Positions 2,209-41,259 of a stretch of 64,000 nucleotides of DNA are shown here, in pieces (positions within the stretch are counted from its first letter, which is position 1; each line of letters begins with the position of its first letter). The notes below the pieces were generated by a model. That model saw only the letters and a list, made by a program, of their open reading frames with translations. It had not been told where the DNA came from and did not search any database. The stretch lies in NCBI GenBank assembly GCA_017654855.1, contig CM030335.1, positions 310,001 to 374,000 of the forward strand, read 5' to 3'. Origin of the DNA: Podospora anserina (taxonomy: Eukaryota). A program made the position numbers and the translations under genes.

Positions 2209-3740
2209 AGGGTGTGAGAAGATCAATGATGAAAGAGCGGATAAGCGTCGCCGGGAAATAAAAGGCCTCGGGCATAACTGATACATGGCTATTCTTAATG
2301 TCTCATGAGTAAACAATGGATGATGAGGGCGTGCAAAACATATGCACCGCCCGTTGACTTGATGGCGGTCTGCTCATCTGCTCAGGGTTGCGTACCTACA
2401 GTGTCGAAGTTTTGCTTGCAGTTGTCTAGATCCTTCGACTGCTAACCTTCTTATACCAGACGATAACCTAGCACGGCGCTTACAATCAACCCCAGAACCT
2501 TATGCACTAGCCCAAGGACCCAACCTGCGAGCCGCTTTACGGAGAGGTAATCCAGAGTTGTGCCGTGTTTCCTTCCACAGCTCTTTGTATGGCGCATGTG
2601 GCATCTTCCTCGTGAATGCATTGTTTCAAGTCACCACCACGTGGAAATGACGACTTGTAAAAACATGCATACAAGACCACCAATTCCCTCACGCGCCGTT
2701 CCGGTGGTACAGACTTCAGAGTCGGCGTCCGGACGTTGAGGGATTGGACACCGCCCTCCGAGGATCATGAGGTTCGTCTCGGCAGCTTGGTGATACCGCG
2801 GAGCCTCACACGTTGCGAATGGAAATGACGACGAGGTGCCGTCAGGGCTACCATCCGACTTTGCCGCACCACGCATGGGGAGTAACGAGGGGTGGCCAAC
2901 AGCCGCGTCGCCCAGGAACCGGCCACACACTGCCCTGCCCGCTGCCCAACAGCCCAGGAGCCAATCCTTTGAGTCGGGCTGTGCAGGTTTGTCGCCCCAG
3001 AGTTGCCCAGCAGATATAGTGACCACACCACCATCTTTTGGAATTTCGGGCACCGCCATCGGATTTACTCTTGTACTCACTGCCACTGCCGACGAATCAG
3101 CCCCTTTCCTTTTTGCCCGTTTATTCCCTGGGCACTGCATCAAATGACATAACCAAGTGGAGGTGCTGTTGTCCAGTTCAAGTACAAAACCACCCATGGA
3201 AGGCCACGCGCGCGCCAGCCGGGTCCGGGTCTCGCCCAACCCACGTATTGCCCACATACGCATATATCACCGACGGGTCGGCCACCGTCTCAAGCCCTGT
3301 GTCAAAGACCCTCATTGAAAACATTTCTTTGTTGTATAAGGCACCGAACCCCGGGTCAAGGGCATTGTCCTGCACGGGAGATCACCGGTCATCACCTTGT
3401 TCAACCCCTTTCTTCCGAACCTCAGTCTTTGTTCAACAAGCTCAGAGGGGGACCTGACGTTCACTTGTAACACGCGATGCTCACCTTCTCAAGCTCCCGG
3501 CCAACCCGGCAGCCCGCCCGCGGGGTGTGCCGGCCACACGAGACCGGCGAGTCGAATCTCAACTCTGAGTGTCCAAACTCATTCAACACAATAAAGACTG
3601 CCATGGCGGCAGGGCTCGGGAGCAGTCTATTTCTGTTTCAAGGACTGTCGAGTATTTCTCCTAGGATTTTGACGGAAGCTTCGCTGCCGTCACCAACATT
3701 TCCACCTTCATCGACCTATCAAGAAGAAGACGGGGGCAGT

Positions 3741-4232
3741 ATGGGGAATTCAAAATCGAAACCATCTCGAGAATCAAAGCCGAATTCACGATTCTCACGG
3801 CTCTCTACCACAGCCCCAGTAACCTCACCCGTTTCGGCATCCAAACGCACAAAACCGGAGTATAAACTCAAGGTCATCTGCTCCAACTGCGCCTGCAAAA
3901 ACCTGCCTGAGACGGCCTGCCACACAGCGAACGATATCAACGCCAACGGGGGGAGCAACCTCGCCTTTCAGGAAGGGAGTTCTTACTATGAAAACCAAGA
4001 GCTGAAGAGTTGGAAGCTGGAGATTGACTGCTGCGGTTGGAGCAGGACGCGGGAGGAGGGGGTTTATCTCGTGGAGAAGCACATGAAGAATGCGCAGGAA
4101 AGGGGGAGGCCAATTAGTGTGGACGAGGTGCTGGTGAAGCTGGAGGAGGGCGGGATTGCGCATAGGAGTAATGTGGCCAAGAGGGTTTATAAGCCTAGGG
4201 GGCAGGATAACGCTCAGAGGCCGAGGGGTTCG

Positions 4233-4263
<31 letters not shown>

Positions 4264-4379
4264 CACGTCCCCAATCACACCCGCAGCCGCAACAACAACT
4301 ACAGCAAAGAACGAGACAGGGATGGAGTCAGCAGAGTTGGCATCAGGGGGTCGAGTACCAGTATCCTGGAAGACGATGA
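3741..4379 (+). CDS. Hypothetical orphan protein (about 212 aa) with an MGxxxS N-terminus, a Cys-containing core and a Gln-rich tail
   Basis: Uninterrupted ORF. ATG at 3741 gives MGNSKSKPS; core ICSNCACK...IDCCGW; poly-CAG tract near 4240-4260. Confidence 0.55.
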
Positions 4380-4776
4380 ACGACAGAAGAATCATGACAT
4401 ATGGCTCTGCCACGGTGCATATCTTGGATTTTGGTTTCGTCATCTATCATATCAACTTGGGGCTGGCACACCCGAGTATTCCGAGCATAAATTGGACATT
4501 GGGACTGGATATGGTGTGGCATGGCATGGCACTGGATACAGGTTTATATCCAGAGACTGATCATGGCGAGAGGCATGCCCGGCAGAACGATACCCTTGGT
4601 TTTAGTGGTTACACATATCGTAATGTTTTTCAAATGCGCATCAATCATCATAAACGCCAGTCCTACTTAGACAATAATGGAACCGTGATATTCTCTCCTC
4701 TTCCTTCCGCACCACATACCAAACTCGGTTGCCATCTTTAATCGGTCCCTCTTATATTGAGATGATAAAAAATCCC

Positions 4777-5210
4777 TCAGCATCTCAAACTCTTCCACTT
4801 ATCAATCTCTCCATTGTGATAATCGAGATGACTACGAACCGTCCTGTCGATCTGGGCTTGGGTGAACGAAGCAATGTGATCCATCCGCAGAGCGCTGCAT
4901 AGGCGGTACGTAGGTAAGTTGGCCCAAAGTCAGCCCTTTTCCATCTTGAACATAGCAAACATTCTTTGCAAGCTGTTCCTCACCAGAGATCTTTTTTTTT
5001 TTAACTTTTTTTTTTTTTAACTTACTAGTGTGAAGCAACAAGCTCTATATCGGCCCGGAGCCATTTCTCGCACTCTGCTTTGAGCCTAACCTCGCACGCG
5101 GTCCTGAACTTCTTCAGCTTCTCCACCCGCTCCAGCGGGGTGACTTTCTGGTCGATGTGGTATGTGATCATTACATCGCAGAGTGAGTTTAGTTGGTTGG
5201 CGGTGACCAT
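4777..5210 (-). CDS. Small orphan family, copy A (100 aa; exons 5210-5026 and 4894-4777)
   Basis: MVTANQLNSLCDVMITYHIDQK...ELVASH-Y-ALRMDHIASFTQAQIDRTVRSHLDYHNGEIDKWKSLRC*. Donor TA|GTAAGT, branch CTGAC, acceptor CAG. Homologous to copies B, C and E. Confidence 0.75.
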
Positions 5211-5393
5211 CGTTCTGTGCTGTTGTCAAGTGAGTGAGGTGGGATGAGAGGGATATCCATGCTGGCCGATGCAGGAAGGCAAAGGTGATGTGATGGGTGC
5301 TTAGGTACACTCTGCTTATATTTCTCCACATAACCCTAACCCCCTGTCGGGGTAATGCCTCGCTCAGCCTCTCCCCCCTTGGCCAGGGCCCCC

Positions 5394-5782
5394 TCAACAT
5401 CTCAACCTCTTCCACTTATCAATCTCTCCGCTGTGGTAATCGACACCAGGTCGAACTGTCCTCTCGATTTGGGCCCGGGTGAAGGCAGTACGGTTGTTGA
5501 TAAGTCTGGTGCTAGATAGGTGGGTAGGTAGCCAGCTTTCGGTCTTTGAGATACCAAAAGTGCGCTGAGCTCTTCCAGTTCTTTGGCGGTTACCGCTTAC
5601 AATTTCGCAATAATGTCGGTTGCAGATAACCGAGCTTTCTCAGCCTGTCTTGTAAGCCAAGCTCTACATTTGGTTATGGATTTCTCCAGCCTTTCCACCT
5701 TTTTAAGTGGGATGGCCGTTTGGTCGATGTGGTAGGTGATCATGGAGTCGCAGATGGAGTTGAACTCGGCGGTGGTGACCAT
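5394..5782 (-). CDS. Small orphan family, copy B (99 aa; exons 5782-5601 and 5511-5394)
   Basis: MVTTAEFNSICDSMITYHIDQ...DIIAK-F-TRLINNRTAFTRAQIERTVRPGVDYHSGEIDKWKRLRC*. Donor TT|GTAAGC, acceptor TAG. Exon 2 is 118 nt, as in copy A, and its last ~50 nt are near-identical to copy A. Confidence 0.75.
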
Positions 5783-6595
5783 TTTTGTTCTTTTTAGGTG
5801 GGTGAGTTGAGGAAATGGCGGAGAGAGGGGATGATGAACTGTGGTGATGATGTGATGTGGTGTTGAGAAGACGGTGATGAAGCTTGCGGGAATGCTTTTC
5901 AGCCCTTTTCTCCGATTTTATCTGGTGCGCCATGGACGTCAAGGTTTATGAAGCTTTTCAGTTTTCGCGAGTTCTGTATGAAACTTTCTTTTCTTCATCC
6001 GATTAGGAGGGACCCATCGGAGCCTCCTAAAAGCCACACTACGCCAAAATAAAATGCTTCAAACTATAAACCGGTTCTATATCAGCTTCCAACTACGTGA
6101 TAAAGATGGTTGTCGACTGGCCTTTGAAGATGGTCTATAGTAGATCTTTAAGAGTCAAAGGTAGAGATATATCACCATTCGATTGTTACTTAAAAGCGAT
6201 ATAAGACAGAGATAACCGCCAAAGCCTCATGTTCTGTTCTCATGATGCGTCAACCTGGGTCCATTCCATGTAAGTCACTTCCTTGCCTATCTGACATTGA
6301 CTTTGTTGGGAGAATAACGGGCCTGAAGACGATGCCGAGATTTGCTGGTGTCGAGACTGGCGTTAAAAAAATGATGGGCTGAACGGCTGCCAGTAGACCG
6401 GGCCAGCAAGCTTCAGCACAACTACCCAGAAAATTTCTGGCCCTTGATCAAAAACCATTCCAAAGACTCGGCAACCTGACACACAAACCACGGAGAGAAG
6501 AGCAGCGCCTGTTTAAATTCTTTCTTCAATCCAACCCATATCTTCCACACCCACTCCCCACCCAAGCGTCCTCACCAAGGGCGTGCAAAGACAAA

Positions 6596-6948
6596 ATGGT
6601 CTCGACCAGCGAGTTCAACTCGATCTGCGACGCGATGATCTCGCACCACATCGATCAAAAGAAAAAGTCATCCGAGCGAATCGACAAGTTGAACCAATAC
6701 AAAGCCAACCAAATATCCAGGGTTGTTGCCAAACCAATGCCGTGGTGTTTTAATCCCCTCTTTCTGTAACTCAGCACCATGATGATGAATGGGCTCTGGC
6801 ATTTGAGATAGACACTGACCTTGGGTATTCTAGCGCCGAGCGCATCCTCTTTGTAACTGGGTTTGCACAAGCTCAGATTGATATCGCAGTTCGTCATTAT
6901 AATTATCATAACGGAGAAGTTAAAATTTGGAAGGTGTTAAGAGGTTAA
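6596..6948 (+). CDS. Small orphan family, copy C (94 aa; exons 6596-6765 and 6834-6948); absent from the ORF track
   Basis: MVSTSEFNSICDAMISHHIDQKKKSSERIDKL...NPLF-L-AERILFVTGFAQAQIDIAVRHYNYHNGEVKIWKVLRG*. Donor CT|GTAACT, branch CTGAC, acceptor TAG; same intron phase as A and B. Confidence 0.75.
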
Positions 6949-7227
6949 CGAGGTTGGAGGTGTTGAGAAGTTCGAAATCAGGCGGCCAAGGGAGGTAGTT
7001 GGGATAAGTCTACTCGCAGCCAAAATCAACTCTAAGCCACTGAAGGTGCATTTGTCCACAGCCGATGGGGTTAGATAGGAAGTTTCTAATGGCAGTTCAC
7101 AGCTTGAAATAATCAACCATCCTTTTCCCCTCACTTTGATGACTTCCATGGTAGGTACTACACACCTTGTGATACAACCAGCACCGCCCACGCGCAAAAT
7201 AAAAACAAAGAACGCCCCACCAAGAAG

Positions 7228-7735
7228 ATGCTACCGACCTGCCAGTTTGATGTGTTAATGTGTTAACGTGTAGCCATTGCGACTGTATGATTGAGTTTAA
7301 CATTGATCAAAAGGCACACTACCGTAAGGGAGCTAAGAGACTATGGAAGATTGTAGCAAATGCGATCAAGGAATCTTTGGTCATCCAGTGAGCAACAGAC
7401 ATCTTTTTCGGCTACTTTTGTGAGAATAAGGGGTTGTAGGGCAAGGTCACTGGGGCAGAAAACGTAAGCAAAATGTAATGAGAGTGATCGTACTCTACAA
7501 ATCTAACAAACAGACGAAAAACTACAGAAAGTGTGTGAAATACCCTAGCCCTGGGAGCAACCAGAGTGTGGGCCTGAAGAAAGGTGGGATAGGTGTGTCC
7601 TGGGAGCAACCATATGGGTTGATATTAGATGTAATTAGATCCATGCTGGCCGTGGATGCCATGGAGGTCGAGGATTTGATTGTTCATCATGGGGCAGAGA
7701 CGCTAAGGCGGAACAAGGCGAGGCTTTGGGGATGA
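7228..7735 (+). pseudogene. Small orphan family, decayed copy D
   Basis: MLPTCQF.. is followed by a GTGTTAAT/GTGTTAAC micro-duplication with a frameshift, then CDCMIEFNIDQKAHYRK...LVI and a CA|GTGAGC donor. Downstream IVHHGAETLRRNKARL weakly resembles the family C-terminus. Confidence 0.45.
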
Positions 7736-9118
7736 AAGAATAAGGATGTGGGGGCTCTGATGGATAAAGGGCTGGCAATATTGGCTGGGACTGTGGATTC
7801 CTCATTTATGATGGTAACCAGGTAGGTATAATGAGGGCTGGACCTCCAATATGGACCGGGGGTTTGACAAGTGATGGGACATGCCTTGACTCCCAGGCTG
7901 TATTAAAGGCATGATCCAACTTAGTGAATTTCCCTACCTATTCAAAGCACATTAACTTTCTTCTGAGGCCTTGTTGTCCGTCCTGTGCTATGGTCTGGTC
8001 TTTGGGCCGGTCACTCTCTCAACGGCAGGCGGCTGCAAAAAAGATTGCCGCTATGTGAGGCCCGGTGATGACATCTGCAGCGATCTCTTCTCTCATTGCA
8101 TGATTTCCGTGGGCTCTTCTCAATTCTTTGACAGCTCCTGTTGGCAAATCCTTACTGGTGGTTGTCACGATGAAGATGGTGTGTTGTTTCTCATAATGGC
8201 CACGCAGAAATAGTACTCTCTCTCACGCTTTTGGACAACTTGGAAAGCCACAGTATTTTCCACCTTGTGATTGTTTGACAGCGCCACCTGACTGGCTGCA
8301 CAACGAAGCGGCCTGGTTTCACTGACAAGAGACTCCGTGGAGAAACGTGCAGACGGATGCAATGCTGTCACACCAGAGCATCACTGCCATCACCGGTTGA
8401 GAGCTCAGTTCCCCACGGATAGCTTCCAAAAGAGTCATGAAGCCTTGTTTCAAATGACCCTTTTTTGTCTCTGATTCTGTCTGTGCCCGATGTTGGCTGC
8501 GTGGCAGCTTTAACACCAGGACGCGGGGTCTGGTCTCAGTCTTGTATAAAATTCCTGATGATCATCCGTATTATTGTGACACAAGCGCCGGTGTAACCCC
8601 CGTGGTGGCGCATGCCGTGGACGATTTACTGCCGGTTCTAGACTTTACCCAGCCTTCGGAAGTGGCTTACCACCTGCGCCAATGCGAGGTGTGCTTCTTC
8701 ACATTATCGGTCGTACTCAGCCCAAATACGACGGGAGATCTCCCCCTCCCTCTGGTCCCTTCTCTTGTCGGTGTGGGCAGGGCTTTCGAGTCATGCCATA
8801 GGTAGTTCGGCATATCGTGCAGTTTCAGCTCATACCAGGCCAATCGATCATTGGACGCTGTTCGTCACGGCCGACTCCGAGTACGCCTGTTGCATATGAA
8901 CCCGGGAGGGCGGTCCGCTGATTTCCCTCGGTGGCCCCGGTCGCCTTTAGTATGTGGTATTATGTTCCTGCTTTGCCCGCCCTTAACCCCCCGGACTCGA
9001 CTGAACTTGCAACTGGTTTCGTTTCTTCCCTTCTCGTCATATTCCTTTTTACCCTCTGTTTACATGCTCATCCGACACCTCGCCGAGGAAGCCCGCTTTC
9101 ATTCGGGCCGATGCCGAC

Positions 9119-14444: not shown

Positions 14445-16181
14445 ATGGCGCAATCGCCCGTGACCCCCGTAGGCTCAAGTCTAGGACTTGGGGACGATAA
14501 AAGCTTTTCAAAGGCCGGAGTCTCAAGCGATCCAGGCGATGGCGAGGTCAGCGACCGTCTTGACGTTGACGCCAGCCATAGCGAGGATGGCGACCACTCT
14601 AACGGACTGTACGCCCATCGCGAGATTTCCTTGACCGCAGAGGAAAGGAAAGCCGAAAAGAGGTTCCTTCTCAAGATTGACTTTATTATCTTACCTTTGA
14701 TTGCATCCATTTACTTTCTCGCTGCGCTGGTAAGTCGCCCGGCCATCCTTCCGTTTTTCGCTCTCCCCAAAGCTAACGTCGTTGTCAGGACCGAAGCGAT
14801 GTTGGCAATGCGGCCGTGGCCGGCATGACAGCCGATCTGAACTTGACCGCCGCAGAGCTCAGTTTCTGCGTGGCCTTCTTCTACATTGGTTTCTTGGCCT
14901 TCCAGCTTCCCGGCTCCATCATGGTCAGGCTGTTGACGCCCCCTATCCAACTGGGCACTGCATTGGTCATCTGGGGCGGTGCCACCGCCATCATGACAGA
15001 AGCAAATAACTGGCAAACCATCGCCGGTCTCCGCATAGTAGTCGGTTGCTTCGAAGCATTCATCCAAGGCGCCCCGCTGTACCTTACTTTCTGGTACAAG
15101 CCCCACGAGCTCGCCACCCGCGGTGCAATCTTCATGTCCATGACGAGCCTGGCCGGGAGCATGAATGGCTTGATAGCGTATTCCATTCAGACGACCATGG
15201 AGGGTGCCCACGGTCGGAGGGCCTGGCGGTGGATTTTCCTTATCGAGGGTGTGGCGTCTGTTGGGTTTGGGGTGCTCATCTTTTTCATCCTGCCCAACAC
15301 GCCGGAGAAGGTGAAGAGGTGGTTTACCGAGGAGGAGAAGAAGATTGCGCTGAGGAGGACGAAGGAGGCGTATAATATCCCAAACACGAAGATTAGTTTG
15401 GGGCAGCTGAAGGCGACGGTTAGGGATCCGAAGACGTGGTTTTATTGTGAGTTTTCCTGATGATTAACAGGAGGAAGACTACTGACTAAAGCACAGGTGT
15501 CATCAACCTCGCCGCTGCCATCAGTCAAGCAGCATGGGGCCAGTTCTTGCCTGTGCTACTCAACCTCAACGGGTACACCCCCAACGAAGCCCAAATCATG
15601 TCCATTCCTGTCTATGTCTGCGCAGGAGTGTCGGCGATTGCGTGCGGGTACCTTTCCGATCGCTTCCGCATGAGAGGAATCTTTGTTATCGTCGGGCTAC
15701 TCGTTGCCGCGGCAGGATGGCTTGTTCTCATCCTCAGCAAGAACCAACAGCTCTCCTACGCGGGCACATACTTTGTCGGCATTGGGTCGTCACCATGTGT
15801 GATTGTTATGTTGGCATGGATGAATAACAATGTCCTGGGCTACACGAAGAAGTACACCCCCTCGCGACCCCCTTTTCGGAGACAGTCACTAACATGAACA
15901 ACAGAGCGGGAACACTAGCCATAGTCAACATGATCGGCCACCTAGGCGCCATCGGCGTTTCTTTCTCTTTCAACAACAAGCCTGATTACTACCTTGGGAA
16001 GTCACTGGCTATGGGATCAGCGCTCATTGCGACCTGCACGACTATTCTGTTCTTCTTTTACCTGGATCGGCAAAACGCGCGGAAGCTGGCGAATAAGGAC
16101 ACGGTGGAGGCGCGGATGCTGAGGCAGAAGACGGTGGAGGAGGTGTTTGATGGACATCCGGATTTCATGTATTCGAAGTAG
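14445..16181 (+). CDS. MFS transporter, anion:cation symporter (Dal5/Tna1 allantoate/nicotinate permease) family; 3 introns
   Basis: LLKIDFIILP..YFLAAL|DRSDVGNA, YLTFWYKPHELATR, RAWRWIFLIEG, YLSDRFRMRG and C-terminal HPDFMYSK. Confidence 0.92.
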
Positions 16182-26541: not shown

Positions 26542-28798
26542 TTCGTCTTTTCAACGGCGAAGGGGATGGCAAAAAAGTGAGGAAGTGGACGAGCAATGCT
26601 GAGAATAAGCTAAGAGATATATGTCGGACCGCGCCACGATTGCGACTTCTTGAAGCATTGCGACGTTTACGACACACCATATTGGCCAGAATCAGCTTAC
26701 TGCATTGAAGAGCTCCGATAGTCCTGCAGCAAGCGGGGTGCTGAAAATGTGGTAGGGTCGTTCATTGGCTATGCGGCAGCTACCAGGTAGGGTCGAGAGG
26801 CATATCATTGCTGAGCATACAGGAAGAGGTAACATTCTTGATGCTATATATCGGCGAAAGTGACGTTCTGACTAAGCGCCAGACCTATAACTCAGTTCAA
26901 ATGCCAGCAGAAGCCAGGCCCGTAGAAACGAAGAAAAGGGGGACATACCAGAGCCCAACCAATTGCCAGGCAGGCGAGTCAAACCAGACAACTTGAAAGA
27001 CCTGCTTGTGGTGTGTCTCCCCCTGTTCGTTATATGATCGTAGACTTGAAGTTGTCAGGGCCCAGGATCGGCGATGGTGGACTGAGGTGCGGGAGAATAT
27101 TCGATTGCTTCTCAGCCACACAGACCACAGACCACAGACCACAGAGACCACGAAGAGTGACCCGGGGCGTGATATTGAGAGAGCGAGGTAGCTAAAGGGT
27201 GTGTAGCACAATCTGGATCCTGTCTCCGCGCCATCGTTGGCCAGCGTGACCGTTCCGCGATGTGTGTCGCAAAATGATCTATATCCAGTCAGCCATGTTG
27301 CGGGGTCAACGTTGGTCAAGATCCGGATGTGTGCAGAACCAATACAATCCTCCAATATAAAAAGAGATACTAGCCAAACTATACAATCTGTTGCCTCTTT
27401 GATAAAGCATAAAACACAGAGTACAGAGAAGCGCCCACTTAATGGGACTATCAGGTGATACAGGCTGCAAGAGACATGGCGAATTGTCGGCGAGTCGGCA
27501 ACGTTCCTTCCTGTTGAGCTGTGACCAGAACATGGTGCCTTCCCCTTCTCGAAGTCGCGCGCAGCAAAGGAGGACAGGGCTGGCACCTGCCTGTCCAATC
27601 GCCCTGCGATGCTAAGATGAATATGGCAACAGGCTCCTTCCCGACCCTGACAGCCGGGCAAGATTTCTTCTCCTGGACACTTTTCTTCCATAAAGCCCGA
27701 CCTCACTTTTTTGTTACCCTCCCGTTTCTCTTCCATTTCTAGACAAACCGTCGCTGGGTGGAGGTGCTCGATTCTGCGGAGTGCAGGGTGATGGTCTGAT
27801 CTGTCACCAGAAAAAGAAACTCGCCTTCGAGTCTTCTGTCGGGTCGTTCCAGCGCTGATTCAGCAGAGATGTCTCGACGACGGTCTGTGATAGGCCTGCC
27901 ACCACCTCGTCCTCTGTCGCACCTGTCGTGAACAGGAGAACAAACTCATCCCACCACCATTGGCCGGGTCCCCAGACAAGTCATCCAGAGCGGTCTAGAG
28001 CCCAGGGTTCATCCCACAGACTCATACACGATACGGACCCTGTCTTGCTGCGATCGGCCAGCCACCGGAGCAACACAGCTGCTGTGGCCAGCGGACAGCG
28101 TCTGCGACAACATCTCTTTTGGGCCAGCATTTGTCACATCATGGCTGCCCTGACCTCGCACTGTGGCGTTCAGGTTGTGCCTTCCGGCCGTCTACCGACG
28201 ACGACACTCGATCCCCGGTCACTCCACGCTATCCCGTTATCGCCAGCGCGCAATATCTACTGCATCTCCAGGGTTGTTGCTGTTGCTTTTTGCTGGGACG
28301 AGTTGGCGCTCGCCACATCCACCACCTCACCACCACGTTTCCGGCGTTCCATGAGAATCATGGCTGCCGCTGCTTGTGGCACTGCCTTTCACCACACCCC
28401 TCCCCCTTCCCCCCCTGAGCACCCCCTACCCTGCTTGCCTTTTATTCCATATTTCTCTTGTGTCTCCGCGGCGCTCGATCTCATCCGAGGACACAAGTCA
28501 ATGACCTCTTCGCTCTTCGACATCATCCTCTGATAGCACCTTCCATCTTCGCGAGAACGACCTCGCCATTTTTACACCATCATCACGACGCCCTCTGCGT
28601 TGTTGTCTCCGCCGCCTCCATCCCCACGTGCCGCAAAGCCCCCCCTGAGTCCCTTCCCGGCATCAAGTGAGGTTGGCGCCACGTCCAGCCATGCCTCTTC
28701 ACTGGAAGGACAATCCTATAATATCATCAACAGCTCTTCTCACGCAAGAGACCAAGTCTTATCAAGGTCCCTTCTCAGACCCTCGACCATCAACCCAT

Positions 28799-31700
28799 AT
28801 GTCCTCGCCAGAGCTGGTCGAAAGAGTCTTTCCCATCCGCCTATCTATTCTTGAGAACTCGCCATATCTGCGAAATAGTGATAGTATGTGTTCCTTCCAC
28901 CCCTGCGACGTACAATCATGCTGACTCAAAGTGCTCAGCTGCTGGAGTTGCTCTTTCAGTTGTTCCTGTTCAGGCAGAAGACCATTCTGTGACTGGTGTG
29001 GAAGCCCAGGTGGCAGCCCCCGATGGGCTTGTCCCAGGGCCAGATCCTCAAGCACCGTTGATAACACCCGAAGCTGTTATCGAACATGGCCCTGACGAGG
29101 CATTGAGATCGTCGAATCCTTTGGTGACGGACAGATTTGAATACACCGTCATGAACGACGGGTCACACGGCGTCTTTCAGGGCACACGACGAGTTGTCAC
29201 TCGTTGCGAAGATGAGTTGATCCACATCCCCGGAGCGATTCAATCGCATGGTATGCTCGTGGCTCTGAAGCGGCGAGCAGAAGGAGTCTACATTCCCCGG
29301 GTTGTGAGCGAAAACTCGTTTCAAGTCTGCCACTTTCACCCTGCCGAGATCTTTGCCCTCGACAGCTTCAACAAGGTGGTACCGACCTACCAGCGACCAC
29401 TGTTTAATACCCAGCTAAGAAGTGTGAGAACCACGTACGAGATCACGAGGAAAGAGCAAGAACCTGTGGTATTCGACTTTTCCTTTAGCGATCCCGAAGG
29501 ACTCATTATTCCATGCTGGTGCGCTGTTCACTACCTTGGAGGCGAAGTCGACTTGTACATTTGCGAATTTGAGTTGCAGGACAACGCATTGCACCCCATG
29601 GCCCATTACTGGCAGGCTGATGTGCCGCCAAATCCCATCGACACTCTAGGAAGCGACCACATGGATCTTGCCACTGTCTCAAGCATGCAGACTCGCAGTC
29701 AACCTGTCATTTCCAGTCCAGACGCCCTGTGTGGCGGTCTTGGCCCCAATGCATCCTCGGTCGAGGTCGTCAACGTGGCAACCAAGATTCAAAAACAATT
29801 CTCAGCCGCAAAATCGGTTTCCCAGTTGCTGGATTCTATTGTCGGCGTGGTTAAGGAACTCTCAAGGTTCAACCGGGTCATGGTGTACCAGTTTGACCAA
29901 GACTTCAACGGCACGGTCATCGCCGAGCTCATGGATCCCGCCACAAGTCGTGATGTTTACCGTGGTTTGCACTTTCCACACACAGATATCCCACCTCAAG
30001 CACGGCGCCTGTACATGGTCAACAAAGTTCGTGTGCTTTTCGACAGAACACAGACTACCGCCCGGTTGGTGGGTAGAGACCGGAAAGACATCGAAACCCC
30101 ATTGAATCTCACACACTCGTATCTCCGAGCAATGTCGCCGGTCCATCTCAAATATTTGGAAAATATGGAGGTTCGATCTTCCATGTCTCTGTCGCTCGAG
30201 TCGGAGGGCAAGCTTTGGGGGCTGATCATTTGCCACTCATATGGACCCACGGCAACGCGTGTACCTTTTACGGTGCGGGAATTGATATATTTTGTGGGCG
30301 TCTCAGCATCGACCTGTTTGGAGAAGCTGCTCAACGCCGACAGGCTCAAAGCTCGGCGCATCATTGAGACACTTCAAGACCAAAAGAGCCCCAATGAATG
30401 CATCACGGCATCGTCGGACGAGCTACTCAAACTCTTCGAGGCCGACTGTGGCTTCCTTGTGGTGGAGGGTGAGGCTAGAACAATTGGGCGACTGGCAGCA
30501 TATGCCGAGGCCGTAACACTGCTCAAGTATTTGTTCTTCCGAAGATCGAGCAGAATACTCGTCTCGAGCAACTTTGCCCATGATTTTCAGGATCTTCACT
30601 ATCCAAGCGGCTTCAAGGCAATTGCCGGTGTCTTGTACATCCCATTGTCGGGGATGACGGACGACTGTGTGGTGTTTTATCGCCGAAGTCAGCTTCGAGA
30701 GGTTCACTGGGCAGGGAAGCCATGCCTGGCAGGCAAGTTTGGCACGCTGGAACCTCGCAACAGCTTTCAAAAATGGACCGAAGTGGTGGATGGAACCAGC
30801 AAGAGCTGGACACCAGAGCAAGGTAGGCACCGCACCATCGTGCCAAGGGACGAGTAACGGACTGACCGAAACTAGCCACCCTGGCCACCATGGCCCAGCT
30901 TGTTTACGGCAGCTTTATCAGAGTCTGGCGTGAGAAGGAATCCGCTGTCAAAGAGACAAGGTTGAAGCGTCTGCTTCTGCATGATGCATCACACCAAGGT
31001 AAGCGATTCAAGGGAAGAGATTTTCCCATCCCAACGCTGACATACACCGACAGTGCGAACACCCCTGAACGCAGTGATCAACTACCTTGAGATGGCCCTC
31101 GAGAAGCCTCTGGAGGAGAGCACCAAGCAAGCTCTCACGTCGTCCTACACGGCATCCAAGTCTCTCATCTACGTCATAGATGACCTCCTGAATTTGACAG
31201 GGAGCGCAACTGGGTCGATCCCGCAGCTCTCCAACCTCTTTGATGTGGGAGTCTGCTTGGAGGAGGCCATGGAACCTCTCGAGCGGCTGGCAAGGGAGAA
31301 GGGAATCGAGGTTGTTCTCAAACCCTGCACAGGAGCTGTTCGATTCGTGCGAGGTGACCCATCCAGTCTCCAACGGGCCGTCTCCATACTGGTCGCCAAC
31401 GCCATTCAGCATACAGTCAGGGGGCGGGTGTTGGTCGAGTGGACTACAACGTGCAAGAAAATGGAAAGCTGCACGATGCAAATTTCGGTCAGCGACTCGG
31501 GCCCCGGTCTCAGCGAACGAGCCCTCGATGACATGTTTCAGGAATTTGAGCAGGTTCCAGACGAAGACTTTGACGAGCTCATGGGCCAGTCGCTGGCGCC
31601 GAGGGACAATGTCCTTCGCGTCGGTGTTGGACTAGCCTTTGTGGCCCGCTATGTCAAACAACAGAACGGGCAGCTGAGAGTGAAGTCAGTCAAAGGACTT

Positions 31701-33033
31701 GGCTCAACTTTCATCATCGAGGCGCCCTTTACCGTGGTATCGCGCGCACACTCTCTGGCTGCACGTAGGGACGCATCCCCGCTCCCAGCATTGCCCATGC
31801 CTGGACGCCCGTCGGTTTTGGGGTCGTTTCCCCCCAAAACACACGACATCACACCGGCAGGATCGTCAGGTGCGGGCCTGGGATCCAAGATGGGTGCCTC
31901 GCCACCCATCGTTGTGCCGACACCAAGCATTTCGCCCATGGACACGGCGCGGACGCCGACGACACTCTGCTTTACCGTCCTGATTGCCGATGACAACATT
32001 ATTAATATCCAAATTCTCAACCGTCGCCTGACCAAGTTCGGTCACAAGGTTCTTGTCAGTCGCGATGGCCAAGAGTGTTATAACATGTTTGCGGCGAATC
32101 AAGCTACTACTGATTTTATCCTGATGGATCTCAACGTGAGTTCCGTTGCATCCTTTCGCACATGCTTGCCTTCTCTAACCAGATACTCGTGAACAGATGC
32201 CCGTCGTCGACGGTTGGGCTTCGGTTAAGATGATAAGAGACCTCGAAAACGCCAGACCGACCCCATCTCGCGTTGTCCAAGCCTATGGCCGTGTCCCTGT
32301 CTTTGCCATCTCTGGCATGCTCCGGCGTGGAGACGAACAGCGGTACAAGGATGTGGGCTTTGACGGCTGGATGCCCAAGCCCATTGATATGAAACGACTC
32401 TCCACCTACTTGACCGGTGCTGTCGACGCACCAACACGGAAGCAGGGTGTTTATCAAGAGACACACTTTGCCATGGGCGGGTGGTTTCCCGAGGAGACTG
32501 TCCCACCACTTGTTATGGAGAGGCAGTTGCAGCCGGAAGAGGAAGTTATTGAGATTGAACATGTTAAGGAAGAAAATCCCGAAGCAGCTTACATTCCTCT
32601 TCCTGTGACAGCAATGGAGTCTCCATCAGTGCCGAGGGCTGATGACTCCTTCTTCCCCAGCAAGGACTGGAGCGTACCGCCAGCCAACGAAGATGATCAT
32701 CGAATGGCTTGTCCTCTTCCACTTGAAAAGGATGGTGTTGGCCAGAAAGAAACTCCCCCTCCTGACAGCGCCATCGCCATCCACTCCACCATGAATACGC
32801 CCGCGGTGGAGGCTAGCCCGGAGATTTGGAGCCTGCATCAACCTCAACCACCAACGGACAGCATCGAAGCAGTGCTGGAAGCTGATGAGTGCCCTCCATC
32901 GAGTGAGGGCGCAGCAAAGCCAGTATCTGGCCGAGGTCATGCCCAGACACCGGCAGCGAGACCGCTTCAAGTGGACCCCTTTTCTGAATACTGCTCGCAG
33001 CCAGAGGTATCGTCTCCTGCGAGGACGATTTGA
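28799..33033 (+). CDS. Fungal phytochrome (PAS-GAF-PHY-HisKA-HATPase-receiver hybrid histidine kinase); about 4 introns
   Basis: N-terminal ERVFPIR, bilin-binding region RCEDELIHIPGAIQSHG, FNRVMVYQFD, GLHFPHTDIPPQAR, LRAMSPVH, LWGLIICH, PRNSF, H-box SHQ|VRTPLNA, DSGPG and receiver ILMDLN|MPVVDG..KPID. Start inferred through intron 28884-28938. Confidence 0.92.
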
Positions 33034-40900: not shown

Positions 40901-41259
40901 TCACATTTTCAACGCCTTCCACTTCTCCGCTTCCGCCTCGTGATATACGAAAACGTCGCATACGAACCGCACATAAGCTGAGAACATCGCACTACACAGT
41001 TGCGGTAAGAACTGTTAGTCCACTGATAGCTTCGAGTAACAGGAGTGCATGATATTCTTGGCTCTTGCTATCTCTTGATCGGCTCCCCCGTCTTTTCTTG
41101 AATCCAGCCTTTTTGTGACGCCCAGGCGTCGAGGTCCTCCACCTCGTCAAGCTCTCGTGCCCACTTCAGTATCATGTTTCGATATTTCTCCTTGTGATCG
41201 AGATGATACTCGATCATAGCGTCGCTGAGGCTGTTGAACTGGGTTTTTGTGAGTGTCAT
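40901..41259 (-). CDS. Small orphan family, copy E (93 aa; exons 41259-41069 and 40991-40901; GC-AG intron)
   Basis: MTLTKTQFNSLSDAMIEYHLDHK...EPIKR-Y-AMFSAYVRFVCDVFVYHEAEAEKWKALKM*. Donor TA|GCAAGA, branch ACTAAC, acceptor TAG; same phase as A-C. Confidence 0.65.

What the first reader, a model, noticed from the sequence alone, without database searches (positions are those of the whole stretch)
4777..6948. Cluster of three intact two-exon micro-protein paralogues of an unrecognised family
Seen: three genes (A 100 aa and B 99 aa in tandem on -, C 94 aa divergent on +) share the N-motif MVxxx(E/Q)(F/L)NS(I/L)CDxMIxxHIDQ and the C-motif FxxAQI(D/E)xxVR...YH(N/S)GE(I/V)xxWKxLR. Each has a phase-2 intron after codon 56-61, and splicing restores the frame exactly. 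The middle segment is highly divergent while both ends are conserved. The ORF track shows only the truncated first exons of A and B and misses C. I recognise no known domain; the proteins look helical, lack a signal peptide and have conserved His/Asp residues. Inference: a lineage-specific family under birth-and-death evolution. Such behaviour is seen in fungal allorecognition, meiotic-drive and defence genes, but no function is shown here.
Basis: partly seen in the sequence, partly recalled or inferred. Interest (0 to 1): 0.8.

Follow-up and report, generated by a model that had tools for sequence, protein, structure and literature searches.

The report
Unannotated fungal hairpin micro-protein gene cluster
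Three small two-exon genes, with two decayed copies nearby, encode a family of about 100-residue helical-hairpin proteins found only in Podospora and close relatives; one is clearly spliced and expressed yet absent from the gene lists checked, and its function is unknown.

Summary
Genes A (100 aa), B (99 aa) and C (94 aa) exist at the stated coordinates, each with a phase-2 GT..AG intron whose removal restores the frame.

**Expression.** A's junction 5026/4894 is present in contigs of 4 of 4 runs laid, at depth 137-510. Its spliced protein stands letter for letter on 28 public assembly contigs. B and C have no splicing evidence; two low-depth contigs run unspliced into or through B's intron.

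**Extra copies.** I found two: a broken copy psiE (7228-7735) beside C, and a divergent copy D (40901-41259).

**Family.** A profile search of 1.84 billion proteins found 6 hits, all Podospora-type, Triangularia or Apiosordaria. In Apiosordaria, accession numbers place them near the same transporter gene. There is no Pfam, PDB-sequence or Rfam match.

**Structure.** AlphaFold2 gives a confident antiparallel helical hairpin (pLDDT 93.6 and 92.5), which would bring the conserved N and C motifs together.

**Evolution.** The motifs are under purifying selection (omega 0.10-0.25 with saturated dS). The middle evolves fast.

**Function.** Untested. My best guess is a small cytosolic binding module. 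Nothing ties it to allorecognition or meiotic drive.

This is a real, unannotated orphan family of moderate interest.

The parts
4777..5210 (-). Gene A, 100 aa. Exon 1 5026-5210, intron 4895-5025 (131 nt, phase 2), exon 2 4777-4894 including the stop.
   Evidence: Model. Contigs of 4 of 4 runs laid join 4894 to 5026 exactly, at depth 137-510 (table 8). The spliced product equals stored protein P0009, seen on 28 assembly contigs. The contigs' upstream (5') ends lie at 5222-5275, which gives a 5' UTR of about 12-65 nt.
5394..5782 (-). Gene B, 99 aa. Exon 1 5601-5782, intron 5512-5600 (89 nt, phase 2), exon 2 5394-5511 including the stop.
   Evidence: Model. It is 45% (exon 1) and 58% (exon 2) identical to A. 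Splicing is not shown: three low-depth contigs (depth 2-3) overlap the intron. X18 record 12 (5463-5655) spans it whole, X16 record 7 (5436-5586) crosses the exon 2-intron boundary, and X15 record 2 (5538-5774) crosses the exon 1-intron boundary.
6596..6948 (+). Gene C, 94 aa. Exon 1 6596-6765, intron 6766-6833 (68 nt, phase 2), exon 2 6834-6948 including the stop.
   Evidence: Model. It is 36% (exon 1) and 54% (exon 2) identical to A. Its N-motif DNA is 83% identical to B's over 75 nt.
7228..7735 (+). psiE, a decayed fifth copy. ATG at 7228, then about 20 extra bases (a tandem tgtgttaa) that shift the frame into a stop at 7264-7266. The rest of exon 1 is 7272-7387, the phase-2 intron 7388-7638 (251 nt), and exon 2 7639-7735.
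   Evidence: tblastn with P0008 (Apiosordaria backusii): 61.5% over 39 aa (E 1e-12) and 51.9% over 27 aa. Sequence read; junction computed. Family-invariant H18 is N here, and the W of the C motif is R. It groups with P0008 in the tree at 94/94.
40901..41259 (-). D, a divergent copy about 34 kb away. The exon-1 ORF is 41259-41071 (63 aa, N motif with S for the Cys). The C motif lies at 40990-40904 in another frame.
   Evidence: tblastn; sequence. Of four frame-restoring GT..AG pairs, none has a good donor; the best phase-2 pair is 41119/40992. A relative's ORF, P0050, is frameshifted against the window just after that donor. Whether D is intact is unresolved.
5783..6595 (.). Divergent intergenic region between B and C (813 nt), presumably holding both promoters.
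   Evidence: Position only. No shared promoter motif was found in the alignment of the five upstream regions.

Best explanation
This is a cluster of real protein-coding micro-genes. They belong to a family found so far only in Podospora and close relatives, with annotated members in Triangularia and Apiosordaria.

Shown:
- Each intact gene (A, B, C) has two exons split by a phase-2 intron. The broken copy psiE keeps an intron of the same phase.
- Each encodes a basic protein of 94-100 residues with no hydrophobic leader.
- A is spliced as predicted and is the only copy seen at high depth.

Predicted: the protein folds into a long antiparallel helical hairpin.

Inferred:
- The conserved N motif (residues 1-21) and C motif (about the last 30 residues) lie on the two arms at the open end of the hairpin, so they would pack against each other. 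Together they would form one conserved head carrying the residues conserved family-wide (Asn8, Cys11, Asp12, His18, His87, Glu90, Trp94 in A's numbering).
- The fast-evolving middle forms the distal tip.
- The most likely mechanism is a non-enzymatic binding module. The head binds a conserved partner, ligand or another hairpin, and the variable tip tunes specificity between paralogues.

The locus sits in an unannotated gap between the genes called Pa_4_830 and Pa_4_835.
For: Gene structure and coding:
- Frames are restored by GT..AG introns.
- All five start codons have A at -3 (sequence).
- The motifs show omega 0.10-0.25 while dS is at least about 0.6 and mostly saturated. Protein-level constraint has therefore acted on A, B and C since they duplicated.

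Expression:
- 4 of 4 runs laid have a contig joining 4894 to 5026.
- P0009, identical to spliced A, stands on 28 contigs. P0003, a 94%-identical spliced form, stands on one other contig.

Family range:
- 6 hits at E<=1e-3 among 1,835,955,588 proteins.
- 5 hits among 460 candidates in a second profile search.
- Named members are P. pseudopauciseta, P. pseudocomata, P. bellae-mahoneyi, T. setosa and A. backusii.

Synteny:
- The A. backusii members are KAK0744699 and KAK0744701.
- An A. backusii protein of the window's transporter cluster is KAK0744704.

Fold:
- Model of A: pLDDT 93.6, pTM 0.69, helices 4-21, 23-52 and 56-98.
- Model of the T. setosa member: pLDDT 92.5, pTM 0.74, helices 5-48 and 57-101.

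Other properties:
- pI 8.4-9.9 and GRAVY -0.27 to -0.47.
- No repeats other than the paralogues themselves in 3000-9000.

Unannotated:
- No NCBI or UniRef protein sits in A's 90% cluster.
- In supplement file 1 of PMC9801653, Pa_4_835 follows Pa_4_830 directly.
Against: - No function was tested, and the binding-module mechanism is inference from shape and conservation.
- The head contacts are deduced from hairpin geometry; I could not read model coordinates.
- AlphaFold2 readily gives confident long helices for such sequences, and the alignments were shallow (12 and 13 rows, several of them fragments).
- Fold searches gave only generic coiled-coil hairpins. Foldseek had 0 matches at E<=0.001. 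The best VIA Z was 10.1, below the level the tool calls meaningful for helical models.
- B and C lack splicing evidence. X18 record 12 runs through the whole of B's intron unspliced, and X16 record 7 and X15 record 2 each cross one of its boundaries.
- That the laid runs are RNA is the tool's guess. I laid no DNA run to exclude an intron-less DNA copy.
- Slightly lower synonymous divergence inside the motifs (pS 0.41-0.44 in two comparisons) leaves room for some gene conversion.
Confidence: 0.6

Rival explanations
1. A conflict-type element, meaning a toxin-antidote or spore-killing gene, or an allorecognition determinant. Its variable hairpin tip would be under diversifying selection.
For: - The family is clustered and multi-copy, with decayed copies.
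- The middle segment diverges fast (dN 0.64-1.35, omega 0.48-0.83).
- A's exon 1 differs at 5 of 61 residues from the forms P0010 and P0011, all within residues 23-52. The flanking Pa_4_830-type protein differs at 2 of 299 and 2 of 256 (P0023, P0024). Fisher p is 0.002 and 0.003.
- That each pair sits on the same contig is inferred from equal longest-contig lengths.
- Two passages of PMC9262711 say both subtelomeric regions of chromosome 4 hold large haplotypes with very positive Tajima's D. The locus maps to about 276 kb by my inferred offset.
Against: - No polymorphism was seen within the species. Studies P2, P4 and P5 (6 rows that are not possible sources) hold 0.99-1.00 of the sampled words.
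- I do not know that these are different strains.
- The N and C motifs are under purifying selection and dS is saturated, so the copies are old and stable.
- Accession numbers suggest the cluster keeps its place beside the same transporter gene in another genus.
- No membrane segment is apparent, unlike Spk-1 (134 aa, two predicted transmembrane domains; passages of PMC8092558).
- No HET or NLR domain was found in the 31 long ORFs scanned.
- Whether 276 kb lies inside the haplotype blocks was not checked.
Confidence: 0.1
2. A small metal- or ligand-binding protein. The His18, His87 and Glu90 residues conserved family-wide, with Cys11, Asp12 or Asp20, would form a site at the hairpin head, possibly completed by dimerising into a four-helix bundle.
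For: - His18, His87, Glu90 and Trp94 are kept in every member aligned, except the broken psiE. Cys11 is kept in all but D.
- With the turn at residues 53-55, residue 18 would face about residue 90, and 21 would face 87. This is inference from geometry.
Against: - There is no match to any metal-binding family.
- Cys11 and His18 are seven residues apart on one helix, too far for one ion (inference).
- No coordinates were available to measure distances.
- The homodimer prediction never ran.
Confidence: 0.15
3. Only A is a working gene. B and C are silent relics that still look intact.
For: - In the four runs laid, the only contigs above depth 5 that lie on the cluster are A's.
- The few low-depth contigs on B run into or through its intron unspliced.
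- B's intron lacks a good CTRAY branch site near its 3' end.
- Neither B's nor C's exon-1 ORF is in the protein collection.
Against: - Both keep open frames, GT..AG borders and A at -3 despite saturated synonymous divergence.
- Their motifs show pN 0.13-0.31 against pS 0.41-0.81. True relics of that age would be broken, as psiE is.
- Expression may be limited to conditions that were not sampled.
Confidence: 0.15

Closest known systems
Hypothetical proteins of relatives: QC763_0106150 and its orthologues (Podospora pseudopauciseta, P. pseudocomata, P. bellae-mahoneyi), QBC36DRAFT_295607 (Triangularia setosa), B0T21DRAFT_407780 and B0T21DRAFT_344865 (Apiosordaria backusii)
   Same: They carry the same N motif and C motif and have similar lengths (82-106 aa; 153 aa for one model with a long N-terminal extension). 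E-values are 9e-5 to 4e-4 with the first profile and 2e-16 to 5e-32 with the wider one. The two A. backusii genes lie within five accession numbers of a transporter of the same protein cluster as the window's.
   Different: Identity to A is only 26-37%, and the middle segments cannot be aligned with confidence. All are annotated as hypothetical, with no Pfam domain and no study found. The Podospora 106-aa type is not encoded in this window (best tblastn 44% over 36-38 aa to B and C).
Generic antiparallel coiled-coil hairpins, such as the Snf7/CHMP4B ESCRT-III core hairpin, prefoldin, the seryl-tRNA synthetase arm and HP0958
   Same: They share the two-long-helix hairpin shape. VIA Z is 8.2-10.1 over 75-100 aligned residues; the Foldseek TM-score normalised to the query is 0.59 for the listed Snf7 row (8wb6).
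   Different: Sequence identity is 1-14% in the VIA rows. No match stands above the background of helical models, since the tool notes a typical best Z near 14 for helical queries. The shared shape shows no shared function or descent.
PIIN_05872 of Piriformospora indica (PDB 5los)
   Same: It is a fungal protein of about 90-100 residues with a helical hairpin fold. VIA Z is 8.7 over 89 residues; Foldseek TMq is 0.54. From recall, it belongs to a lineage-specific multi-gene family of small proteins.
   Different: Identity is 11-18% with no shared motif. From recall, not tested here, that family is secreted and His/Ala-rich with a C-terminal DELD motif. A, B and C have no hydrophobic leader.
Small fungal spore-killer proteins (Spk-1 of Neurospora sitophila; rfk-1; SKC1)
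   Same: They are short, lineage-restricted, intron-containing genes without known domains, some with many diverged copies (passages of PMC8092558).
   Different: Spk-1 has 134 aa and two predicted transmembrane domains. The proteins here are hydrophilic hairpins. No sequence comparison was made, and no drive phenotype is known for this locus.

Membership tests
The family itself (N motif NSxCDxMIxxHIDQ plus C motif YHxxExxxWKxLR hairpin proteins of Podospora and relatives) | N-terminal motif directly after the start codon | tested here: met
   Present in A, B, C, D and, after its frameshift, psiE. Also present in P0003-P0008.
The family itself (N motif NSxCDxMIxxHIDQ plus C motif YHxxExxxWKxLR hairpin proteins of Podospora and relatives) | C-terminal motif ending the protein | tested here: met
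   A, B and C carry it. D keeps YH..E..KWK.LK. psiE has lost the Trp.
The family itself (N motif NSxCDxMIxxHIDQ plus C motif YHxxExxxWKxLR hairpin proteins of Podospora and relatives) | Phase-2 intron between the variable middle and the C-terminal part | tested here: met
   Found in A, B and C and psiE. Confirmed by RNA contigs for A only. Unresolved for D. Not testable for the relatives, for which I had no DNA.
The family itself (N motif NSxCDxMIxxHIDQ plus C motif YHxxExxxWKxLR hairpin proteins of Podospora and relatives) | Antiparallel helical hairpin fold | tested here: met
   Two AlphaFold2 models, pLDDT 93.6 and 92.5. These are predictions only.
Pfam DUF7648 (PF24659) | Score at or above the gathering cut-off (27 bits) | tested here: not met
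   Only C's exon 1 matched, at 13.3 bits and E 0.1. None of the 7 further proteins scanned matched. Across 13 proteins scanned this is chance level.
Spk-1-type spore killers | Two transmembrane segments, and killing of spores that lack the gene | tested here: not met
   GRAVY is -0.27 to -0.47, and the models are continuous amphipathic helices. The drive phenotype is not testable with these tools.
Allorecognition (het) loci | Two or more divergent alleles kept within the species | tested here: inconclusive
   Six rows from three studies that are not possible sources hold 0.99-1.00 of the sampled words. Strain identities are unknown and no reads were laid from them.
ESCRT-III / Snf7 hairpin | Sequence or fold match standing above background | tested here: inconclusive
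   VIA Z is 8.4-8.9 and Foldseek E is 0.85-1.3, among many unrelated coiled coils. There was no Pfam Snf7 hit.

The most novel reading that the evidence does not exclude
The cluster encodes an intracellular recognition module built on a minimal scaffold. A constant His/His/Glu-bearing head would dock onto a conserved cellular machine or effector. A hypervariable hairpin tip, replaced about ten times faster than the neighbouring gene's protein, would recognise changing targets such as a mycovirus, a selfish element or non-self proteins. The paralogues A, B and C would act as a small repertoire. This would be a new fungal immunity or conflict gene family hidden in an 'intergenic' gap of a model organism.
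Probability: 0.1. Interest if true: 0.75.

Novelty: new member of a known kind. Interest (0 to 1): 0.4.

Why it matters
- It adds at least one well-expressed, correctly spliced protein-coding gene to a 4.4-kb stretch with no gene in the protein sets or transcript table I could check for a model fungus. It probably adds three.
- It defines a small protein family with no recognised domain, a confident predicted fold, and a clear split between a constrained head and a fast-evolving tip.
- Such micro-genes are routinely missed by gene callers: here only exon-1 ORFs or nothing were called. The case shows what is being missed.
- Practically, A is an easy knockout and tagging target in a tractable organism.
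- The faster protein change in A and B than in the flanking gene is a testable hint of adaptive evolution.
- Without a function it remains one more orphan family, which is common in fungi.

Tried and rejected
- **Whole-genome search of the window's own assembly:** no genome is held.
- **RNA runs:** no RNA holder is listed on record. The runs I laid are 'RNA?' by the tool's guess.
- **C's junction:** no contig bridges it. In the four runs laid, C has only pieces at depth about 2, and similar pieces lie in intergenic parts. I draw nothing from this.
- **Joint table:** table 5 listed no joints. I read A's junction from the adjacent record coordinates in table 8.
- **Pfam:** nothing at or near the cut-offs. 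The hits to DUF7648 (E 0.1), DUF2528 (0.059) and ZnuA (0.028) are each on a single protein and are rejected as chance.
- **PDB by sequence:** best E 0.74.
- **ESM Atlas:** no usable hit.
- **Foldseek and VIA-align:** only generic coiled coils.
- **Rfam on 4000-8000:** 0 matches.
- **Shared promoter motif among the five upstream regions:** none convincing.
- **Transposon origin:** rejected. There are no repeats in 3000-9000 beyond the paralogues themselves.
- **D's gene model:** four frame-restoring intron candidates, all with weak donors. Left open.
- **Homodimer prediction (complex prediction, two copies of A):** never accepted because the queue was full. 20 hand-ins were turned back. There is no result of any kind.
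- **Earlier findings of this scan:** nothing found by place, sequence or words.
- **Literature:**
  - Four word searches found no paper on these genes.
  - The locus-tag search returned only Pseudomonas papers.
  - These searches cannot find a sequence, so 'not in print' is not established.
  - PMC9801653: I read the abstract, section 10 and passages of supplement files 1 and 2. Its Table 3 of 20 new coding genes does not include this locus.
  - The supplements I could read contain no occurrence of 'nTAR'; two pptx files were unreadable. A's transcript may be among its 1732 nTARs.
Full report

Yes. I rebuilt the three models from window coordinates.
- A is on the minus strand: exon 1 5210..5026, intron 5025..4895 (131 nt, GTAAGT..CAG), exon 2 4894..4777, 100 aa.
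- B is on the minus strand: exon 1 5782..5601, intron 5600..5512 (89 nt, GTAAGC..TAG), exon 2 5511..5394, 99 aa.
- C is on the plus strand: exon 1 6596..6765, intron 6766..6833 (68 nt, GTAACT..TAG), exon 2 6834..6948, 94 aa.

All three introns are phase 2. The plain ORF list shows only the exon-1 ORFs (61, 61 and 57 aa).

The exon-1 peptides share 13 invariant columns, all but one within the first 21 residues. The exon-2 peptides share 14. By tblastn the exon peptides find one another in the 64-kb window at E 1e-5 to 1e-14.

**2. Are they transcribed and spliced?**

I laid four runs from four studies, which the tool guesses to be RNA, on 4300-7500.

For A:
- In 4 of 4 runs one contig lies on 4300-4894 and continues, at the next record position, on 5026 upward. 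The records are X15 record 1, X16 record 6, X18 record 11 and X19 record 15, at depth 137-510.
- This is exactly the predicted excision of 4895-5025.
- The tool's joint table was empty because rows at the A/T runs inside the intron were dropped, so the junction is read from table 8.
- The contigs end upstream at 5222-5275, which gives a 5' UTR of about 12-65 nt.
- Downstream they run on into the convergent neighbour gene, so A's 3' end is not defined.
- The exact spliced protein of A is stored as P0009 on 28 assembly contigs. A 94%-identical spliced form, P0003, is on another contig.

Caveat: that the runs are RNA is a guess, and I laid no DNA run.

For B, only contigs at depth 2-3 were found. 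One (X18 record 12, 5463-5655) spans the whole intron unspliced. X16 record 7 (5436-5586) and X15 record 2 (5538-5774) each cross one intron boundary. B's splicing is therefore not shown.

**3. More copies than reported.**

tblastn with the exon peptides and with relatives' proteins found two further loci.

psiE (7228-7735, plus strand) lies 280 nt downstream of C.
- It starts with a family-like N-terminus.
- It then carries about 20 extra bases (a tandem tgtgttaa) that shift the frame into a stop.
- The rest of exon 1, a 251-nt phase-2 intron (7388-7638) and exon 2 are recognisable.
- Two residues invariant in every other member aligned are lost.
- Its best match is the A. backusii protein P0008 (61.5% over 39 aa).

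D (40901-41259, minus strand) has a 63-aa exon-1 ORF with the N motif, and the C motif in another frame.
- None of the four frame-restoring GT..AG pairs has a good donor.
- A relative's ORF is frameshifted against the window in the stretch between the motifs (P0050).
- D's status stays open.

**4. What family is it?**

Searches against known families found nothing:
- No Pfam family reaches its cut-off on 13 proteins or pieces scanned.
- Nothing in PDB by sequence (best E 0.74).
- Nothing usable in the ESM Atlas.
- No Rfam match.

Searches for relatives found very few:
- A profile of A's relative plus the exon peptides, run against 1,835,955,588 representative proteins, found 6 at E<=1e-3.
- A wider profile in the word-indexed collection found 5 among 460 candidates, none of them new.
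- The named hits are hypothetical proteins of Podospora pseudopauciseta, P. pseudocomata, P. bellae-mahoneyi, Triangularia setosa and Apiosordaria backusii.
- No longer or fused form appeared in the length-unrestricted search, apart from one 153-aa model with an N-terminal extension.

Because these genes are so easily missed by gene callers, the true range may be wider. I had no fungal genome collection to scan in six frames.

**5. Where is it?**

- The neighbour ORF at 3477-4379 is letter for letter a protein held by NCBI on an 827,805-nt contig.
- Its orthologues carry the tags QC76x_400830.
- The transporter fragment at 14825-15457 clusters with PODANS_4_850 of P. anserina S mat+ chromosome 4.
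- Passages of supplement file 1 of PMC9801653 list Pa_4_830 at 274193-275618, and next Pa_4_835 at 280018-281384.
- Matching the Pa_4_830 coding part gives window x = chromosome x + 270,981. This is inferred, but it fits three further genes.
- A, B, C and psiE therefore lie at about 275.8-278.7 kb, in a gap with no annotated coding gene in that table. The table covers only genes with defined UTRs.
- In A. backusii the two family members (KAK0744699 and KAK0744701) lie within five accession numbers of a protein of the same transporter cluster (KAK0744704). The cluster therefore appears to be syntenic across genera.
- An 11-row tree (104 columns) pairs psiE with the A. backusii 701 protein (94/94) and groups A, B and C (84/92). 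D is unplaced. At least two lineages of the family thus seem to predate the split of the genera.

**6. Structure.**

- AlphaFold2 on a 12-row alignment gave A a model with pLDDT 93.6 and pTM 0.69, with helices 4-21, 23-52 and 56-98.
- The T. setosa member, with a 13-row alignment, gave pLDDT 92.5 and pTM 0.74, with helices 5-48 and 57-101.
- Both are long antiparallel hairpins.
- With the turn near residue 54, the N motif faces the C motif at the open end. This would explain why both ends are conserved together while the middle, forming the distal tip, is free to vary. It is inference from geometry, since I could not read coordinates.
- Fold searches returned only generic coiled-coil hairpins. 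Foldseek had 0 matches at E<=0.001. The best VIA Z was 10.1, with 65 chains at Z>=8.
- The proteins are basic (pI 8.4-9.9) and hydrophilic.

**7. Evolution.**

Nei-Gojobori counts among A, B and C:
- Overall dS is about 1 or saturated, so the duplicates are old.
- N motif: pN 0.13-0.17 against pS 0.41-0.81.
- Last 30 codons: omega 0.10-0.23.
- Middle: dN 0.64-1.35 and omega 0.48-0.83.

Coding constraint has therefore acted on all three genes at their ends.

Between close relatives, A's exon 1 differs at 5 of 61 residues (P0010, P0011), all within residues 23-52. B's exon 1 differs by three substitutions and a six-residue indel. The flanking Pa_4_830-type protein from what appear to be the same contigs (equal contig lengths, inferred) differs at only 2 of 299 and 2 of 256. 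Fisher p is 0.002 and 0.003. This hints at accelerated, possibly adaptive change, but the counts are small and I had no DNA for a proper dN/dS.

**8. What does it do?**

Nothing here shows a function.

My preferred reading is a small cytosolic binding module. A constant head would be formed by the two motifs, carrying Asn8, Cys11, Asp12, His18, His87, Glu90 and Trp94. A variable tip would differ between paralogues.

The rivals are:
- a metal or ligand site at the head;
- a conflict-type element;
- A as the only live gene.

For the conflict reading there is only circumstantial support: clustering, decay of copies, the fast middle, and a published remark that the subtelomeric regions of chromosome 4 hold large haplotypes with positive Tajima's D (two passages of PMC9262711). 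Against it:
- The copies are old.
- The cluster appears to be syntenic across genera.
- DNA runs of three studies that are not possible sources hold 0.99-1.00 of the locus's sampled words.
- Spk-1, the nearest small spore killer I read about, has two predicted transmembrane domains, which these proteins lack.

**9. Verdict.**

The finding is real and somewhat larger than reported. It is an orphan family with a common fold and no demonstrated role. It is useful for the annotation of a model fungus and an easy experimental target, but as it stands it is not a new kind of system.

Noticed in passing
window 4238-4894 and 3110-4379: RNA-type contigs carrying spliced A run on across the convergent neighbour gene (Pa_4_830 type, 3477-4379, plus strand). 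X15 record 1 is 1994 nt and X16 record 6 is 3685 nt. The published 3' UTR of that neighbour ends at about window 4637. The two convergent transcripts therefore probably overlap at their 3' ends.
   Followed up: partly
window 6395-6427: A 33-nt stretch in the B-C intergenic region matches, with 3 mismatches, an internal part of abundant 1.5-3.1-kb contigs (depth 38-124) in all four runs laid. These contigs otherwise lie elsewhere (tables 7 and 8). It is a short sequence shared with an expressed gene at another locus.
   Followed up: no
window 4989-5023 (intron of A): A's intron begins with two long A runs on the coding strand (GTAAGTT, then 13 A, GTT, then 11 A). This made the read-laying tool drop the joint row.
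   Followed up: no
window 5601-5640 (end of B exon 1): Relatives' B-type exon-1 ORFs (P0004, P0012) carry six extra residues just before the intron that the window lacks. This is an in-frame indel in the variable segment.
   Followed up: partly
window 28722-32189 (+): A phytochrome-type sensor kinase. PAS_2, GAF and PHY lie in one ORF; HisKA, HATPase_c and a receiver domain lie in the next. It is an ordinary fungal phytochrome gene split by an intron.
   Followed up: no
window 4250-4300 (C-terminal part of the 3477-4379 gene): The poly-Gln run of the neighbour protein differs in length among the relatives' versions (P0016, P0023, P0024, P0021).
   Followed up: no
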